A program made the position numbers and the translations under genes. From Nanobdellota archaeon (GTDB lineage Archaea; Nanobdellota; Nanobdellia; SCGC-AAA011-G17; JACPNG01): a DNA stretch of 32,604 nucleotides. This document shows positions 11,209 through 15,602 of this stretch, piece by piece. The number at the start of each line of letters is the position of its first letter. The stretch's first letter is position 1. The notes beneath the pieces are model-generated. The model did not search any database. It had not been told where the DNA came from and was given only the letters and a program-made list of their open reading frames with translations. The stretch is taken from the NCBI GenBank assembly GCA_038046345.1, contig JBBSWJ010000035.1, positions 1 through 32,604 of the forward strand, in the 5' to 3' direction.

Positions 11209-12048
11209 TTACTCATATTTTTTGACTAAACCAGCCATAACACCAACAAACTCATCTGCACGCTTTCTTAACAGCGTTAGCTCCTTGTTATCAAAGTCAG
11301 CAATAGTTCCATGCGATACATGATGAGCAAGAGCAAACATCTCACGATACCAGTCAACATATTTTTGTTGCAGCATCCCAGAATTAACAAACTCTTCTTT
11401 TAATAATATACCAACATGCTCTGGGCTTGGAGGAGTTTTACCCGCAGCCATTAAAGCAGCATGAGCAGAATCAACCATTGCCCAATAATAAGCTTCTACA
11501 GCACCAAGAATATTAAACCTAGCTCTAGACAAGTGAATTGGAGCACGATTTAAAGCAACATAAATACTCTCCCTTGTAGGCCTAACTTTTCCTTGTGCAA
11601 GCAAAGCTTTTAGTGGCTGAAAAAATCCACCAAAATCAATTAAAGAGATACCGTATCGTAAAACATTAATTATCAATGGTTCACCAGATATTACCTGGTT
11701 ATAAAACGCAGTCATAGTAATAGTATGAACATGTAATTTTTTGGGATAACGTAAAGAAGCAATTAATCGTTCCATCTTAGTCCTGTACCACCCTCTTAAA
11801 GAATCATCCCATGAAATAGTACAGTCATCAACTACTATTATGATATCAATATCACTTAAGCTTTGCGCAGTCTTCTTTGCAGTGCTACCGAATAGAACAA
11901 TTGATTTTATTGTTGGTTGAAACAGTTCATAAGCCTTTAAAGCAAAATCATAAGCAATATCATATTCTCCCTTAAGTGGAATCCTGCCTACTTTCATGTC
12001 TGGTTTCTCTTTCAAAGTTGGCTTATTCACCCGTATTTTTTTGACCAT
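11209..12048 (-). CDS. Nucleotidyltransferase (MNT)-HEPN fusion protein
   Basis: VLFGS...SDIDIIIVVDD (G54, S55, D66, D68); C-terminal HEPN-like AYYWAMVDSAHAAL...TPPSPEHV...HVSHG. Confidence 0.85.
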   Translation of the reverse strand: MVKKIRVNKPTLKEKPDMKVGRIPLKGEYDIAYDFALKAYELFQPTIKSIVLFGSTAKKTAQSLSDIDIIIVVDDCTISWDDSLRGWYRTKMERLIASLRYPKKLHVHTITMTAFYNQVISGEPLIINVLRYGISLIDFGGFFQPLKALLAQGKVRPTRESIYVALNRAPIHLSRARFNILGAVEAYYWAMVDSAHAALMAAGKTPPSPEHVGILLKEEFVNSGMLQQKYVDWYREMFALAHHVSHGTIADFDNKELTLLRKRADEFVGVMAGLVKKYE

Positions 12049-12050
12049 TT

Positions 12051-13988
12051 TTATTGCATTGGTGTACCACTAAACCTATCCCGGTCACCACCCCCAGCCG
12101 CGCCGCCGCCTAGCTCTCTTGGCAGATTAGTCCATCCAGCCCCATAAACATCTCTAAAATGCACATCAGGAAGCATATTCCCAAAACCAAGTGAATACCC
12201 CCCAGCTCTCATGCCTACCTCATTCCATGTAGGCCCCTGGACCCCGCTGTATAAAGGACTTTCAAAATGCATTATAGTGTCAACATGCGGGTTCTCCTTA
12301 AACTGAGCAACATGGGAACCTGCTTCTATTATAGTATTCCCTTTCTCAAATTTAAATCCTGCTTTTTTTAAAAGCTTAAACTGCTCTTCAATTGGAGAAT
12401 CACCAAAACCTGGAGGCATATGTGCGTCATGAAATCCAAAATTATCTGTAATATGCAATTGAGTGACAAATGGAGCAATCTTTTCAGTTTCTTTAAGAAC
12501 ATCATCATCAGAAAAGCCATGAGCCTTAAGAAAATTAATATGCCCAACATCCCAGTTTACTGACACCATTTTATTAGCCATTTCTTGAGCTTTTTCTTTT
12601 GATAGTTTGGCTTCATCCATAAGCCTCTTCTGAATTTCTTCACGGGATTTAACAATAACACGTTTCAGGTCTTCTGAATTACCTAAAGTAAAATGTGGCT
12701 GATAGTTTTCAATAGCTATAACCGGAGCATTTTCCTTGAATTTTTTATATGCATTCATAGCAACATTAGCAACTGTTTTGATAGTATTCTTTTCTGCAAT
12801 ATTGTTGGCAGGAGTAAAAATCTCTGGTAATGGAATACCTGCACCAGAAGCATCACGTTTTCCAACCCTGCCCAGTTCAGTTTGTAAAAATTTATATCTT
12901 TCCTGTTGAATATTATTAATCCTTGATGCAATCTCCTGCTTTTCATTTGATGATTTAGTATTCTTATACTTGGCATGCATCTTTTCAAGTTCATTGCCTT
13001 GAATCTGAACCTGTTTACGTAAACCATCTCTAAACTCTAACAGCTTCTTAGCCTCATCCTTATTAGCTGAAGTATACTGCAATTTATTAAATATTTCATT
13101 AAGACCAGCACCAATATGTTCATCAAGTTGATGTTGAAATGCATTAAGATGGTTAAAATTATTAATAGTACGCTTATATTCCTCCTGTAATTTTGGAGAT
13201 AAATCTTTAGGATTAGTGTTACCAAAACCAGCAAGCATAGCCTGAGCATCTCTAATTCTGCTGTTTAATTCATGTTGTTCCTTGTCTAACTGAAAAATAT
13301 TTAATTCACTCTGATCCCAAGCATTTTTATTTCTTAACCTTAACTCATGTTCAGGATCCAAAAAAATTTTACCCTCGGGCCACTCTCTTTCTTCTAAGCG
13401 TACTAATCCTATTTTACCAGTTGGTTGTTCAACAATCCCCATAGCTTTAAGAATTGCCGGCGTAGGAAACATATTTTTATTAACAAGCTTAAACTTGTCA
13501 GGATAATTTTTCTCCCAGTCTTTTAGTTCAGCAGGCGTTACAGCTTCCCATTGTTCTCCCGGTACACCTGTATTAATATGCATGTTTACAACAGTATTGC
13601 CTTTAGGATTTAATAAGTGAGCACGATTCATAGTTTCATTTAAGAATTTTTCTTCCTCATATCTTTGTTCTTCATGGAATCCTTGTTCAGTAAAACCGGC
13701 CATATCTAATAATGGCCCATGCATACTTATGTTAGCATTACTTAATTTAGCAAGTCTATGAATCTCAGTAAAATGTTGTTTAGGAATTTCTTGAAGTGTT
13801 TTCTTCTGAATTGGTTGAATATCAACACCAGAAATACCTGCATTTAATCTTGCATTAACTTCTCCTAACTGATTTGCAGTTTGAATGCTGGTAGTAGCTG
13901 CAGTTGCACTTTGTGGAACATAAAACTCATTATCCACAAAATAATGCGGATCATTAGCAGTGCGATATTCTCCGATGTATGAACCCAT
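12051..13988 (-). CDS. AP endonuclease 2 / sugar-phosphate isomerase-family TIM-barrel metalloprotein with a large helical insertion
   Basis: SMHGP, MHIN, IENY, WDVGH, LHITDN, DAH and IIEAG motifs; 645 aa. Confidence 0.8.
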   Translation of the reverse strand: MGSYIGEYRTANDPHYFVDNEFYVPQSATAATTSIQTANQLGEVNARLNAGISGVDIQPIQKKTLQEIPKQHFTEIHRLAKLSNANISMHGPLLDMAGFTEQGFHEEQRYEEEKFLNETMNRAHLLNPKGNTVVNMHINTGVPGEQWEAVTPAELKDWEKNYPDKFKLVNKNMFPTPAILKAMGIVEQPTGKIGLVRLEEREWPEGKIFLDPEHELRLRNKNAWDQSELNIFQLDKEQHELNSRIRDAQAMLAGFGNTNPKDLSPKLQEEYKRTINNFNHLNAFQHQLDEHIGAGLNEIFNKLQYTSANKDEAKKLLEFRDGLRKQVQIQGNELEKMHAKYKNTKSSNEKQEIASRINNIQQERYKFLQTELGRVGKRDASGAGIPLPEIFTPANNIAEKNTIKTVANVAMNAYKKFKENAPVIAIENYQPHFTLGNSEDLKRVIVKSREEIQKRLMDEAKLSKEKAQEMANKMVSVNWDVGHINFLKAHGFSDDDVLKETEKIAPFVTQLHITDNFGFHDAHMPPGFGDSPIEEQFKLLKKAGFKFEKGNTIIEAGSHVAQFKENPHVDTIMHFESPLYSGVQGPTWNEVGMRAGGYSLGFGNMLPDVHFRDVYGAGWTNLPRELGGGAAGGGDRDRFSGTPMQ

Positions 13989-14069
13989 AAATATATATTA
14001 TAAGCCGAGATTTATAAGTTTTTCTTAAACAATTTATAAGAGATTATTACTTATTCTTTCAACAACTAT

Positions 14070-15602
14070 TCACACCGACAACATACCATGAGCTTTTTTA
14101 TAAATATCATAAACAGTAAAGCAAGCACCATTAGCTTTCTCTGCTGCTTTCATTAATAGTAGTTTATTAAAGTAAGCTATATTACTCTTACTCTTCCATC
14201 CTTTTCTTAATTTTTTAAATGGTGTATCCCATCCTTTTAGTAAAGCACCAAAAGGCCCAACATACTTTTCATGTTTTTCTTTAGAAAGAGTTTTCTTTTT
14301 AATTGGATCATCTTGATCTTCCTCATTAAGGTATTTTATTATATCATCACTTAATGCTAATAAGCTTGTATCAACCATATCATCAATTAAAGCAAAGGCT
14401 TCTTCTTCCTTACCGCTTTTAAGAAGTTTTAGTTCATTTTCGGTTAACGATAGCGATCTAAAAAACATGTCTACTCTACCACCTTGACGGTACTGAGTGC
14501 CTTGTGCAGTGTTTACACTATGTGGTACACTTCTAAAATTAAATGTAACGAAAATACATGCAAAAACCTTTTCAGAAGTTCTAGCTGTGGTTGGAAAATC
14601 GCCTGAATCAATTAGGGAATCAGTTTTAATCTCTTTGGTAGCAAGCAATTCTAATTCAAGTTCCATATTATTAAATGTTGAGATTATATTTGGGCTGTTA
14701 AATTCTTTCATACCAAGTTTTTGTGCAGCAATCAAATAAGGTTTAGTCCATTCAGCGTACATTTTTAAAGCTGAGGCTTGACTTTTTAAATATCCTCGTT
14801 CAATCTTATAACGCTTTTTTAGTTCAATTTCAGATTTTTCAAGCCATTCATAGAATTCACCAACCTTAACTGTTAGAATACGCTTAACACGCTCATTTAA
14901 ATCCATTTTTTTAACGTCTTTAACATTTTCAGCGCTTAAGTAAGCATCACGTAATGTAACAAACTCCAGTCTTTGTGCTAGGTTATTAATGCTGCCAGCA
15001 CCCTTCTTCATGTCAACTTGATCCATCCAAACTTGTTTTAGCGCAATAAGCCCGTTCATATGTTCATCTTTATCCTTGCGGTGATATTTATCATAGTCAG
15101 CTATACGGATCTCAAATTCTTTAAGATCATATATTAGGTTGATAATACTCCTCATAACAGTGTTTATACGCCCCAGCATGTTAATAGCCTGTTCTTGCAT
15201 TCTGGATGATTTCATTCCAATATCTGAAAAAAAAGCTGAGCCAACTGAGGCTTCAAAGTCTTCCTTGGTTTTATCTACTTTAAAAAAAAGGTTATTTTTT
15301 AAAAAATCCAGCACCCAAAAATATGCTGGTTCAAGCCCCTCAGAAAAACTGTCATATCCTAAATGAAAAGTAGCACTTGCTCCGCCTTCAATAGCATTGC
15401 TTACAAATGGGAGAATCTCTGCCTTTTCCTTATCAGACTTAGCTTCTTTAAGTTTTTCAAGAACAAAAGATATTTTATCCCGTCCTTTTTTTTCATCAAG
15501 CATTTTTTTTATGTCTGTAGAATCAACTTTTTCTTTTTCTTTTAATCTATTAATTACAGCAAGAATACCTCGTGGCTCTGTTTCAACAGTAGATTCTGGC
15601 AT
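14070..15602 (-). CDS. Hypothetical 510-aa helical protein
   Basis: Long ORF upstream of, and co-oriented with, the TIM-barrel and MNT-HEPN genes; no recognised family. Confidence 0.8.
   Translation of the reverse strand: MPESTVETEPRGILAVINRLKEKEKVDSTDIKKMLDEKKGRDKISFVLEKLKEAKSDKEKAEILPFVSNAIEGGASATFHLGYDSFSEGLEPAYFWVLDFLKNNLFFKVDKTKEDFEASVGSAFFSDIGMKSSRMQEQAINMLGRINTVMRSIINLIYDLKEFEIRIADYDKYHRKDKDEHMNGLIALKQVWMDQVDMKKGAGSINNLAQRLEFVTLRDAYLSAENVKDVKKMDLNERVKRILTVKVGEFYEWLEKSEIELKKRYKIERGYLKSQASALKMYAEWTKPYLIAAQKLGMKEFNSPNIISTFNNMELELELLATKEIKTDSLIDSGDFPTTARTSEKVFACIFVTFNFRSVPHSVNTAQGTQYRQGGRVDMFFRSLSLTENELKLLKSGKEEEAFALIDDMVDTSLLALSDDIIKYLNEEDQDDPIKKKTLSKEKHEKYVGPFGALLKGWDTPFKKLRKGWKSKSNIAYFNKLLLMKAAEKANGACFTVYDIYKKAHGMLSV

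What the first reader, a model, noticed from the sequence alone, without database searches (positions are those of the whole stretch)
11209..15602. Candidate uncharacterised system: 510-aa helical protein, EndoIV-like metallohydrolase and MNT-HEPN fusion
Three co-oriented genes (gaps of 81 and 2 nt) combine a nucleotidyltransferase, a HEPN domain, a multinuclear metal TIM barrel and a large helical scaffold. They are divergently transcribed from the three-paralogue/lspA operon across a 72-nt gap. An add-nucleotide plus hydrolyse pairing suggests a nucleic-acid processing/repair, signalling (writer/eraser) or defence module that I cannot match to a named system (inference).
Basis: partly seen in the sequence, partly recalled or inferred. 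Interest (0 to 1): 0.78.

Follow-up and report, generated by a model that had tools for sequence, protein, structure and literature searches.

The report
Conserved unknown three-gene module, Nanoarchaeia
Three neighbouring genes (a scaffold-like protein of no known family, a metal-dependent phosphodiesterase related to the DNA-repair enzyme endonuclease IV, and a nucleotide-transferring enzyme) are kept together in almost every tiny Woesearchaeota/Pacearchaeota-type archaeon, so they look like an undescribed housekeeping machine and not an anti-virus defence system.

Summary
Three minus-strand genes lie at 14070-15602 (A, 510 aa), 12051-13988 (B, 645 aa) and 11209-12048 (C, 279 aa), with gaps of 81 and 2 nt.

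- **A** has no known family. Its confident AF2 model has no convincing fold match.
- **B** is a xylose-isomerase-like TIM barrel. It keeps all nine Endo-IV-type metal-ligand positions and is split by a ~250-aa coiled-coil insert.
- **C** is a fused MNT-HEPN. The transferase residues are invariant, but the HEPN RNase motif is missing.

The refutation test fails. The order C-B-A held in 32-34 of 40 diverse genomes of the class. A was found in 131 of 132 high-quality genomes, mostly as a single match, and evolves about as slowly as GluRS.

A defence or toxin-antitoxin role is not supported. Inheritance is vertical, the neighbours are housekeeping genes, and A and B have no PADLOC hits.

In 26 of 33 loci the module sits beside a lipoprotein-maturation gene: LspA, or AliA/DUF63 in other lineages. 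Most relatives also carry a fourth, K/E-rich gene that this genome lacks.

The function remains unknown. My best guess is a scaffolded enzyme pair that makes and cuts a nucleotide phosphodiester. This scan had already found the same module in other genomes.

The parts
14070..15602 (-). Gene A: 510-aa protein of a family seen only in Woese/Pace/Nanoarchaeia-named genomes. No recognisable catalytic motif; probably a scaffold.
   Evidence: No Pfam, NCBIfam, PADLOC or PHROG hit. 860 clusters at 90% identity and 941 representatives at 50%. Profile found in 195/201 class genomes. AF2 pLDDT 85: helices 123-173, 237-296 and 388-426, plus a beta domain. No Foldseek match in PDB or BFVD. VIA top hits are only generic helical hairpins (Z 10.6) and KA1/AMPK-CTD-like hits for the beta domain (Z ~9). 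Invariant residues are mostly aromatic or Pro.
13989..14069 (-). 81-nt A-B spacer with repeated A/T-rich CTTATAA(A)T elements. Possibly an archaeal TATA-type promoter for B-C. The slot where most relatives carry a fourth gene.
   Evidence: Sequence read. In relatives the A-B gap is at least 120 nt, with a ~200-aa K/E-rich ORF, in 58/62 loci. The promoter reading is inference.
12051..13988 (-). Gene B: xylose-isomerase-like/AP_endonuc_2 TIM barrel with an Endo-IV-type trinuclear metal site. It is interrupted between strands 3 and 4 by a ~250-aa coiled-coil insert (about residues 150-400) and ends in a conserved aromatic/Gly-rich tail.
   Evidence: PF01261. Ligand columns invariant or at least 90% conserved. 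Aligns to Nfo ligands. Best solved relative by profile is MJ1311/3WQO (E 3.4e-18). Insert matches only generic coiled coils. Only PF01261 protein in the genome. Tail conservation, including the SPxY motif.
11209..12048 (-). Gene C: fused minimal nucleotidyltransferase (residues 28-140) and HEPN domain (about 160-279), with a Lys-rich N-terminal tail. It starts 2 nt after the B stop codon.
   Evidence: PF01909/PF18765. G54, S55, D66, D68, D75, H106, D138 and E160 are invariant in 34/34. Model pLDDT 89. Foldseek matches KNTase, AadA, LinB, HalB and MntA. HEPN match Z 12.7. The Rx4-6H position is K/H-x3-H, with Arg in 1/34. Family median pI 9.2.
15603..15674 (.). 72-nt divergent intergenic region between A and the operon ending in lspA.
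   Evidence: LspA lies within 2.6 kb upstream of A in 17/33 loci, and AliA/DUF63 in 9/33. LspA lies upstream in 48/62 further loci.
15675..17559 (+). Associated neighbour, not shown to be part of the module: three ~160-180-aa paralogues followed by lspA (17146-17559).
   Evidence: PF01252, 2.1e-30. The positional link to A is conserved.
10409..11197 (+). Convergent 262-aa ORF ending 11 nt from the C stop codon. The position is conserved but the sequence is not. Whether it belongs to the module is unknown.
   Evidence: No family hit. 27 of the 34 other loci that have C carry a 150-380-aa ORF in the same convergent position, but these fall into unrelated sequence clusters.

Best explanation
A, B and C are one vertically inherited housekeeping module of Woesearchaeota/Pacearchaeota-type Nanoarchaeia. 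They are not a mobile defence or toxin-antitoxin system.

Shown:
- The three genes are near-universal and mostly one match per genome in the class.
- They keep the order A-(K/E-rich protein)-B-C, with B and C tightly spaced.
- They evolve about as slowly as an aminoacyl-tRNA synthetase.
- B keeps a complete Endo-IV-type trinuclear metal site.
- C keeps a complete nucleotidyltransferase site but lacks the HEPN RNase motif.
- None of the three has a membrane segment.

Inferred:
- C transfers an NMP from an NTP onto a hydroxyl group of a macromolecule or metabolite, which creates a phosphodiester.
- B hydrolyses a phosphodiester. This is either the same bond (a reversible nucleotidylylation cycle) or the preceding or following step on the same substrate.
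- A is the non-catalytic platform that holds the two enzymes, through its long helices and the coiled-coil insert of B.
- The persistent position beside LspA or AliA suggests the complex works at the cytoplasmic face of the membrane, in step with lipoprotein and envelope maturation. So does a small protein in other genomes with a membrane-targeting-like N-terminus and a coiled-coil C-terminus.
For: Co-conservation:
- B is present in 40/40 fetched loci, with C adjacent in 34 and A in 32.
- The A profile hits 195/201 genomes and 131/132 high-quality ones.
- B as a single sequence hits 171/201. Long split barrels were found by Pfam or by the B profile in most of the genomes that search had missed.
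- In 80 further species genomes, B follows A in 62/71.
- B-to-C gaps are at most 67 nt in 28/34 loci.
- In one family where A is unlinked from B-C, A sits next to a second C-like gene.

Housekeeping character:
- Median identity to the window proteins is A 37%, B 30% and C 45%, against GluRS 43% and LspA 41%.
- Neighbours are L35Ae, L10e, GluRS, Tyr/TrpRS, ABCE1 and PpsA.
- Matches occur in genomes as small as 0.4-0.5 Mb.

Active sites.

Scaffold reading: A's invariant residues are mostly aromatic or Pro. A has long helices and B has a coiled-coil insert.

Membrane and lipoprotein link:
- LspA or DUF63 lies upstream of A in 26/33 loci.
- DUF63 is HVO_2859 (PMC9426492), and HVO_2859 is AliA (PMC12462473).
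- The small MGxFxFxKKK-linker-coiled-coil family occurs in 13/33 and 29/62 loci.
Against: - No substrate, complex or localisation has been shown. The three proteins have no membrane segment.
- The small membrane-targeting-like protein and the K/E-rich fourth protein were not found in this genome.
- Gene order can persist by inertia in small, slowly rearranging genomes. The other neighbours are translation genes, which points in no particular direction.
- A possible own promoter for B-C in the 81-nt gap means A may be transcribed separately.
- B's nearest sequence relatives are MJ1311, fructoselysine-3-epimerase-like and CbiR-like proteins rather than Nfo. Its chemistry might therefore be isomerase or epimerase-like, not hydrolytic.
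Confidence: 0.45

Rival explanations
1. Nucleic-acid end-processing or repair unit. B cleans blocked 3' ends or cuts at abasic sites, as Endo IV/Apn1 does. C, a basic Pol-beta-superfamily transferase with a Lys-rich tail and an RNA-binding-type HEPN fold, extends or tags the healed DNA or RNA 3' end. A holds the substrate or the enzymes.
For: - Nine Endo-IV-type ligand positions.
- B is the only AP_endonuc_2 protein in this genome.
- MJ1311, the closest solved relative, is listed as the predicted Endo IV homologue of M. jannaschii (PMC2770678).
- C family median pI is 9.2, and the window protein has a Lys-rich N-terminus.
- C resembles HalB, which makes oligo-dA.
- Translation-related neighbours.
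- An unchecked scan note reports an A homologue directly after a DisA-type gene in another genome.
Against: - No B homologue reaches the NCBIfam nfo model at E <= 0.01.
- hhalign probability against E. coli Nfo is only 2%.
- Several lineages carry a separate short ~280-aa AP_endonuc_2 protein beside the long B form, so B is not simply the cell's Endo IV.
- xth (ExoIII) is reported in the same window by a first-stage note, not checked here.
- The HEPN RNase motif is absent.
- No DNA- or RNA-binding domain was recognised in A.
Confidence: 0.22
2. Membrane-lipid or lipoprotein-linked machine. B acts as a phospholipase-C/D-like or glycerophosphodiesterase on scavenged lipids or on the head-group by-product of lipoprotein lipidation. 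C activates a lipid or head-group, as the NTase-fold CDP-DAG synthase Tam41 does. A and its partners recruit both enzymes to the membrane.
For: - LspA or AliA/DUF63 lies next to A in 26/33 loci across lineages that use different lipoprotein enzymes (PMC12462473, PMC9426492).
- LspA lies upstream in 48/62 further loci.
- A small protein with a membrane-targeting-like N-terminus is a neighbour.
- The beta domain of A gives KA1-like matches.
- Tam41 appears among the matches of C (Z 7.1).
- lgt lies in the same window.
- An unchecked scan note reports a PgsA-like gene inside the module in another genome.
Against: - The genome has no CarS and no CDP-alcohol phosphatidyltransferase, so a CDP-lipid product would have no known user.
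- A, B and C are soluble, whereas the active sites of LspA and Lgt face outward.
- The KA1 and Tam41 similarities are within the noise range for these tools.
- Adjacency may be inherited gene order only.
Confidence: 0.15
3. Anti-phage defence or toxin-antitoxin module: an MNT-HEPN type VII TA elaborated with a nuclease effector.
For: - MNT and HEPN domains are typical of type VII TA and of many defence systems.
- C gives weak hits to the PADLOC candidates PDC-S09 and PDC-M05A (best 2.5e-10) and to MntA (26.9 bits).
- The genome holds 17 NTP_transf_2 matches.
Against: - A and B have no PADLOC hit.
- The MntA score is below its cut-off of 60.
- MNT and HEPN are fused and the Rx4-6H motif is absent.
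- The module is near-universal, mostly one match per genome, syntenic and slowly evolving across a whole class, and sits among housekeeping genes. This is the opposite of the patchy, mobile pattern of defence islands.
Confidence: 0.03
4. Three functionally unrelated genes that stay adjacent only through slow genome rearrangement in reduced genomes.
For: Other, clearly unrelated housekeeping genes (GluRS, PpsA, the L35Ae-L10e pair) also recur near the cluster in 9-12 of 40 loci. A can be unlinked from B-C, as in family f30 and in G101.
Against: - A-B-C adjacency (32-34/40) is about three times more frequent than that of any other neighbour.
- It survives where B identity is only ~20%.
- B-C spacing is usually at most 67 nt, and the genes overlap by 4 nt in three genomes.
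- When A is unlinked, it is found beside another C-like gene.
Confidence: 0.1

Closest known systems
Endonuclease IV (E. coli Nfo, yeast Apn1) and MJ1311 (PDB 3WQO) within the AP_endonuc_2 / xylose-isomerase-like TIM-barrel superfamily
   Same: Same barrel family (PF01261). All nine positions that bind the three metals in Nfo are conserved in B, and the six in the C-terminal half align column for column. MJ1311 is the best solved relative (E 3.4e-18).
   Different: B is 645 aa against ~285 aa. A ~250-aa coiled-coil insert lies between strands 3 and 4, and there is a conserved ~70-aa tail. B does not reach the nfo model. It coexists with short family members in some lineages. It is fixed in an operon with A and C. 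The function of MJ1311 is itself unknown.
MntA-HepT (MNT-HEPN) type VII toxin-antitoxin pairs
   Same: C contains both domains. The transferase motif GS...DxD is intact. Structural matches to MntA and to HEPN proteins.
   Different: C is one fused polypeptide. There is no Rx4-6H RNase motif (Arg in 1/34). It scores below the MntA cut-off (26.9 against 60 bits). It is a housekeeping-like orthologue conserved at 33-54% identity across a class, not a mobile pair.
Two-domain O-nucleotidyltransferases: KNTase/ANT(4'), AadA/ANT(3'')(9), LinB; and Hailong HalB
   Same: Same layout, an N-terminal Pol-beta-type transferase plus a C-terminal helical HEPN-like domain (Foldseek E 9e-5 to 1e-3, probability 1.0; VIA Z 9-11). 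This shows that the architecture can nucleotidylylate hydroxyl groups or build short oligonucleotides.
   Different: Sequence similarity is confined to the GS/DxD motif. ANT(4')-I scores 17 bits against a cut-off of 350. The domain orientation differs (rmsd 16-19 A over both domains). There is no resistance or defence context.
CbiR, the cobamide-remodelling phosphodiesterase of the AP_endonuc_2 superfamily
   Same: It is precedent that an Endo-IV-like barrel can hydrolyse a small-molecule nucleotide phosphodiester. 9 of 41 B homologues give weak CbiR hits (best 2.8e-6).
   Different: The hits are weak and partial. There is no cobamide context. CbiR has no coiled-coil insert and no partner NTase.

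Membership tests
Endonuclease IV (Nfo) sensu stricto | AP_endonuc_2 TIM-barrel domain | tested here: met
   PF01261, 40.3 bits against a cut-off of 31.1. The N-terminal strands are also matched, by profile to MJ1311.
Endonuclease IV (Nfo) sensu stricto | Nine ligands of the trinuclear metal site (Nfo H69, H109, E145, D179, H182, H216, D229, H231, E261) | tested here: met
   H90, H137, E427, D480, H483, H512 and E555 are invariant, and D521 and H523 are at least 90% conserved. hhalign puts E427, D480, H483, H512, D521 and H523 on Nfo E145, D179, H182, H216, D229 and H231. 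The H90/H137 and E555 equivalences are by motif position only.
Endonuclease IV (Nfo) sensu stricto | Scores as an nfo equivalogue (TIGR00587), with a compact ~285-aa single-domain architecture | tested here: not met
   No nfo hit at E <= 0.01 for any of 41 members. 645 aa with a ~250-aa insert. hhalign probability is 2%.
Endonuclease IV (Nfo) sensu stricto | AP-site or 3'-end cleaning activity on DNA | not testable with these tools
   Needs an enzyme assay.
Type VII toxin-antitoxin MntA-HepT | Active MNT motif hG[GS]...DxD | tested here: met
   G54, S55, D66 and D68 in 34/34.
Type VII toxin-antitoxin MntA-HepT | HEPN fold | tested here: met
   VIA Z 12.7, rmsd 2.8 A, 103 residues to AF_0298. 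Further HEPN proteins at Z 9-10.
Type VII toxin-antitoxin MntA-HepT | HEPN Rx4-6H RNase motif | tested here: not met
   Column 242 is K23/H10/R1 and column 246 is H in 26/34, with a spacing of x3.
Type VII toxin-antitoxin MntA-HepT | Two separate genes with a patchy, mobile distribution; scores as MntA | tested here: not met
   Fused protein. Found across the class at a fixed locus. NF047752 scores 26.9 bits against a cut-off of 60.
Known or candidate anti-phage defence systems (PADLOC-DB v2) | Component proteins match the system's models | tested here: not met
   A and B have no hit. C has only weak NTase-domain hits to the candidates PDC-S09 and PDC-M05A.
ANT/KNTase-type aminoglycoside or lincosamide nucleotidyltransferases | NTase plus helical C-domain architecture | tested here: met
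   Foldseek probability 1.0, E about 1e-4 to KNTase, AadA, AAD(9) and LinB.
ANT/KNTase-type aminoglycoside or lincosamide nucleotidyltransferases | Family-level sequence score | tested here: not met
   NF033061 ANT(4')-I scores 17.3 bits against a cut-off of 350.
Known fold or family for protein A (ESCRT-III/PspA hairpin, KA1 domain, others) | Significant sequence or structure match over a domain | tested here: inconclusive
   No Foldseek hit at E <= 1e-3 in PDB or BFVD. The best VIA Z of 10.6 is for generic helical hairpins, and Z ~9 for KA1/AMPK-CTD. Both lie within the range the tool reports for chance in helical proteins. No Pfam hit in 49 members beyond stray coiled-coil matches.

The most novel reading that the evidence does not exclude
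A-B-C (plus the K/E-rich protein and the small membrane-targeting-like coiled-coil protein in other genomes) is a previously undescribed, lineage-defining cellular machine of Nanoarchaeia. In it, a housekeeping MNT-HEPN enzyme reversibly nucleotidylylates a protein hydroxyl. Candidates are the near-invariant SPxY tyrosine (Y580) in the flexible tail of B, or an invariant Tyr of A (Y94, Y289). The Endo-IV-type centre of B removes the mark. The cycle would control an envelope or lipoprotein-linked process at the membrane. If so, a toxin-antitoxin-type enzyme pair has been domesticated into an essential regulatory cycle.
Probability: 0.12. Interest if true: 0.85.

Novelty: categorically new. Interest (0 to 1): 0.62.

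Why it matters
Woesearchaeota/Pacearchaeota-type Nanoarchaeia are among the most abundant and least understood archaea. Their genomes of 0.4-1.3 Mb keep little beyond information processing. A module retained in about 99% of good genomes, with two intact enzyme active sites and a ~500-aa protein of no recognisable family, is therefore probably central to how these cells live.

Its persistent placement next to whichever lipoprotein-maturation enzyme a lineage uses (bacterial-type LspA or archaeal AliA) gives a concrete, testable lead to an envelope or membrane function.

It also shows a fused MNT-HEPN and an Endo-IV-type barrel used outside their textbook roles of toxin-antitoxin and base-excision repair. 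That is a warning for automatic annotation, which calls these genes 'AP endonuclease', 'sugar phosphate isomerase' or 'nucleotidyltransferase'.

Tried and rejected
Synteny was done with the genome search, the fetch from genomes and scripts instead.
A narrower alignment, A4, worked.
- **Fold of A.** ESM Atlas (poor model, no usable hit), Foldseek PDB, BFVD and VIA wide gave no convincing match. Viral capsid or portal ideas, and pore-forming toxins, were dropped.
- **Profile search with A** over 1.8 billion representatives returned only family members among the 150 listed.
- **Lipid head-group remodelling via CDP-archaeol** was considered. It was weakened because the genome has no CarS and no CDP-alcohol phosphatidyltransferase; only a sub-threshold CTP_transf_1 hit was found.
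- **'B is simply the cell's Endo IV'** was weakened by the coexisting short barrels in other lineages and by the absence of any nfo-model hit.
- **Fourth gene and small protein.** The K/E-rich fourth gene and the small MGxFxF-coiled-coil protein were sought in this genome by HMM and regular expression. Neither was found.
- **Window scans.** Rfam, tRNA and terminator scans of the window found nothing relevant. The sigma-70 promoter scan does not apply to archaea.
- **Literature.** No description of the module was found in the papers searched.

Full report
**1. Observation**

The window carries three consecutive minus-strand ORFs:
- A, 14070-15602, 510 aa
- B, 12051-13988, 645 aa
- C, 11209-12048, 279 aa

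The gaps are 81 and 2 nt. A 72-nt divergent spacer separates A from a plus-strand operon that ends in lspA (PF01252).

**2. The three proteins**

*Protein A.*
- It has no hit in Pfam, NCBIfam, PADLOC or PHROGs. Scanning 49 family members singly gave only stray coiled-coil matches.
- The family is large: 860 clusters at 90% identity and 941 representatives at 50%. Wherever sources name it, it is 'hypothetical'.
- An AF2 model from a 49-sequence alignment is confident (pLDDT 85). It shows three long helices (123-173, 237-296, 388-426). It also shows a beta-sheet domain assembled from residues 77-118 and 313-387, capped by a C-terminal helix.
- Foldseek against PDB and BFVD found nothing at E <= 1e-3.
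- The Foldseek-independent search gave only generic helical hairpins (Z 10.6) and KA1/AMPK-C-terminal-domain-like matches for the beta domain (Z ~9). Both lie within the tool's stated chance range.
- The invariant residues are mostly aromatic or proline (Y94, W253, P288, Y289, P360). This looks structural rather than catalytic.

*Protein B.*
- It matches AP_endonuc_2 only in residues 400-545. The first barrel strands lie near residues 60-150, and about 250 residues of coiled coil are inserted between them and the rest.
- Across 41 homologues H90, H137, E427, D480, H483, H512 and E555 are invariant. D521 and H523 are at least 90% conserved.
- hhalign against E. coli Nfo has low probability. Even so, it places E427, D480, H483, H512, D521 and H523 on Nfo E145, D179, H182, H216, D229 and H231.
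- The best solved relative by profile is MJ1311/3WQO (E 3.4e-18). That protein has no established function and is listed in the literature as the predicted Endo IV homologue of M. jannaschii (PMC2770678).
- NCBIfam places family members nearest to fructoselysine-3-epimerase-like (36/41) and, weakly, CbiR phosphodiesterase models (9/41). None reaches nfo.
- A conserved ~70-aa aromatic/Gly-rich tail, with a near-invariant SPxY motif, ends the protein. It comes in two lineage-specific flavours.

*Protein C.*
- It is an NTP_transf_2/Polbeta transferase.
- Its model (pLDDT 89) matches the two-domain transferases KNTase, AadA, AAD(9), LinB and HalB, and also MntA antitoxins.
- Its C-terminal half matches HEPN proteins best (AF_0298: Z 12.7, rmsd 2.8 A, 103 residues).
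- G54, S55, D66, D68, D75, H106, D138 and E160 are invariant in 34/34 sequences.
- The HEPN Rx4-6H position reads K/H-x3-H, with Arg in only 1 of 34 sequences.

None of the three proteins has a hydrophobic segment. The C family is basic (median pI 9.2), and the window protein has a Lys-rich N-terminus.

**3. Co-conservation**

- With P0002 alone, B was found in 171 of 201 sampled genomes of the class.
- I fetched about 20 kb around 40 diverse B homologues and compared all ORFs. B was present in 40/40 loci, C was adjacent in 34 and A in 32, always in the order A-B-C on one strand.
- A profile of A hits 195/201 genomes, and 131/132 of those at least 90% complete, mostly as a single match.
- Of the first 20 listed genomes with no B match, 14 carry a long, split AP_endonuc_2 ORF of 500-700 aa. 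The complete genome G055 has a full C-B-A cluster that only the B profile detects.
- A pattern scan of one genome per species found 244 genomes encoding A. Their titles name only Woesearchaeota, Pacearchaeota, Nanoarchaeota/Nanoarchaeia or 'archaeon', and include the complete AR20 genome.
- In the 80 loci kept from that scan, B follows A in 62/71 evaluable cases.
- B-to-C gaps are at most 67 nt in 28/34 loci, and the genes overlap by 4 nt in three.
- Identity to the window proteins is A 37%, B 30% and C 45% (medians), against GluRS 43%, LspA 41% and PpsA 40% in the same loci. The genes therefore evolve like core genes.
- Where A is unlinked from B-C (family f30), it sits beside a second C-like gene.

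**4. Wider anatomy**

- *Fourth gene.* In 58 of 62 relatives the A-B gap holds a ~200-aa K/E-rich, largely low-complexity ORF, which forms a real family. The window's 81-nt gap without it is the exception, and no homologue was found elsewhere in this 97%-complete genome. The N-terminal motif of this protein also matches the N-termini of several A proteins. Composition bias may contribute to that.
- *Convergent ORF.* Immediately 3' of C, a convergent ORF of 150-380 aa is positionally conserved in 27 other loci (28 with the window) but is not alignable between lineages.
- *Upstream of A.* LspA occurs within 2.6 kb in 17/33 loci. In nine loci of other families a DUF63 protein occurs instead (PF01889, E 1.7e-61). 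DUF63 is HVO_2859 (PMC9426492), which is AliA, the archaeal lipoprotein lipidation enzyme (PMC12462473). So 26/33 loci place the module beside a lipoprotein-maturation gene, even though the gene differs between lineages. In the independent set, LspA is upstream in 48/62.
- *Small divergent gene.* Between A and LspA/AliA many genomes have a small divergent gene. It has an MG[ILV]FxFxKKK N-terminus (amphipathic, membrane-targeting-like by inference), a P/G/Q-rich linker and a C-terminal coiled-coil helix. It was not found in this genome, where three ~160-180-aa paralogues occupy the slot.
- *Other neighbours.* These are L35Ae, L10e, GluRS, a class-I Tyr/Trp-type synthetase, ABCE1, a PUA protein and PpsA.
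- *lgt.* It lies in the same window, at 31337-32062.

**5. What it is not**

- *Defence or toxin-antitoxin.* A and B have no PADLOC hit. C gives only weak transferase-domain hits, and scores 26.9 bits against the MntA cut-off of 60. The near-universal, vertical, mostly one-match-per-genome, syntenic pattern is the opposite of a defence island.
- *A plain Endo IV.* There is no nfo-level score. Several lineages carry a short ~280-aa family member as well as the long form. In this genome, however, B is the only family member.

**6. Mechanism**

I commit to the following, with the shown and inferred steps kept apart.

Shown:
- One conserved module.
- Two intact active sites: a trinuclear-metal barrel and a Pol-beta-type transferase.
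- No HEPN RNase motif.
- Soluble proteins.
- Extensive coiled coil in A and B.

Inferred:
- C makes a nucleotide phosphodiester on a hydroxyl acceptor.
- B hydrolyses a phosphodiester on the same substrate, either reversing the mark or processing the adjacent step.
- A, with the K/E-rich protein where present, is the scaffold.
- The LspA/AliA linkage and the small membrane-targeting-like partner point to the inner face of the membrane.

Confidence:
- About 0.9 that this is a single housekeeping module.
- About 0.45 for the scaffolded transferase-plus-phosphodiesterase reading as stated.

Rivals:
- Nucleic-acid end processing: 0.22.
- A lipid or lipoprotein-linked enzyme system: 0.15. This is weakened by the absence of CarS and CDP-alcohol transferases.
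- Adjacency by inertia: 0.1.
- Defence or TA: 0.03.

**7. Novelty**

No paper in the library searched describes the module. Public annotations read 'AP endonuclease family enzyme', 'sugar phosphate isomerase/epimerase', 'nucleotidyltransferase domain-containing protein' or 'hypothetical'.

B and C belong to known superfamilies, but in new architectures and a new context. A has no recognisable relatives. No known system combines these parts.

This scan has met the same module before on other genomes (e1-1398776, e1-4539226, e1-4590843). Those reports reached compatible conclusions. My counts were made independently here.

**8. Limits**

- Only single-chain models could be made, so no interface was tested.
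- Start codons of homologues were taken mechanically.
- All functional statements beyond domain and residue conservation are inference.

Noticed in passing
window 13989-14069, against L077-L156 and L031-L070: Most relatives (58/62) carry a ~200-aa K/E-rich, largely disordered fourth gene between A and B. This genome lacks it, here and elsewhere. Its N-terminal 'KIxFLExLL'-type motif also matches the N-termini of several A proteins.
   Followed up: partly
L037, L039-L041, L046, L048, L049, L052, L054, L056, L058, L063, L068 (first gene divergent from A): A small-protein family with an MG[ILV]FxFxKKK N-terminus, a P/G/Q-rich linker and a C-terminal coiled-coil helix, often followed by LspA or AliA. 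It looks like a membrane tether. It was not found in the window's genome.
   Followed up: partly
window 17146-17559 (lspA), against L052, L053, L056-L060, L063, L068 (DUF63): The slot upstream of A holds bacterial-type LspA in some families and DUF63/AliA, the archaeal lipoprotein lipidation enzyme, in others. Two non-homologous lipoprotein-maturation genes occupy the same position.
   Followed up: partly
G000:C5:92471-94318 (L071:6472-8319, minus strand): A 615-aa paralogue whose residues 176-407 align with almost the whole of C (E 5e-27). It is conserved in the class. In other genomes it lies a few kb from the cluster, upstream of L35Ae-L10e-PpsA. The ESM Atlas links it to shorter NTP_transf_2/DUF294 proteins of Aenigmatarchaeota.
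   Followed up: partly
window 10409-11197 (+): A 262-aa ORF convergent on C, 11 nt from its stop codon. 27 other loci have an ORF of 150-380 aa in the same place, but the sequences are not alignable between lineages.
   Followed up: partly
whole genome G000: 17 NTP_transf_2 (PF01909) matches in an 821-kb genome, most in open frames of roughly 110-290 aa. That is many minimal nucleotidyltransferases for so small a genome.
   Followed up: no
window 8029-10323 (+): The PpsA-like gene scores above the NCBIfam equivalogue cut-off for phosphoenolpyruvate synthase (NF005057: 630.9 against 598 bits). This bears on another first-stage note that calls it a paralogue with a dead pyruvate site. It recurs next to C in about 10 of 40 loci.
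   Followed up: no
window 31337-32062 (-): Bacterial-type lgt (PF01790, E 2.8e-76) lies in the same window, about 16 kb from the module. No DUF63/AliA was found in this genome.
   Followed up: partly
C-termini of B homologues (L031-L070): The tail of B comes in two conserved, lineage-specific forms. One ends ...YGxGFxxLPxELGG...FSGTPMQ. The other ends ...SPxYRIDxxxxSWTDI...PSKDWxxWSExPLE. Both keep the SPxY motif.
   Followed up: no
L074:6921-8009 (G133): In family f30, where A is unlinked from B-C, a second C-like gene of 362 aa (profile E 1.8e-55) lies divergently next to A.
   Followed up: no
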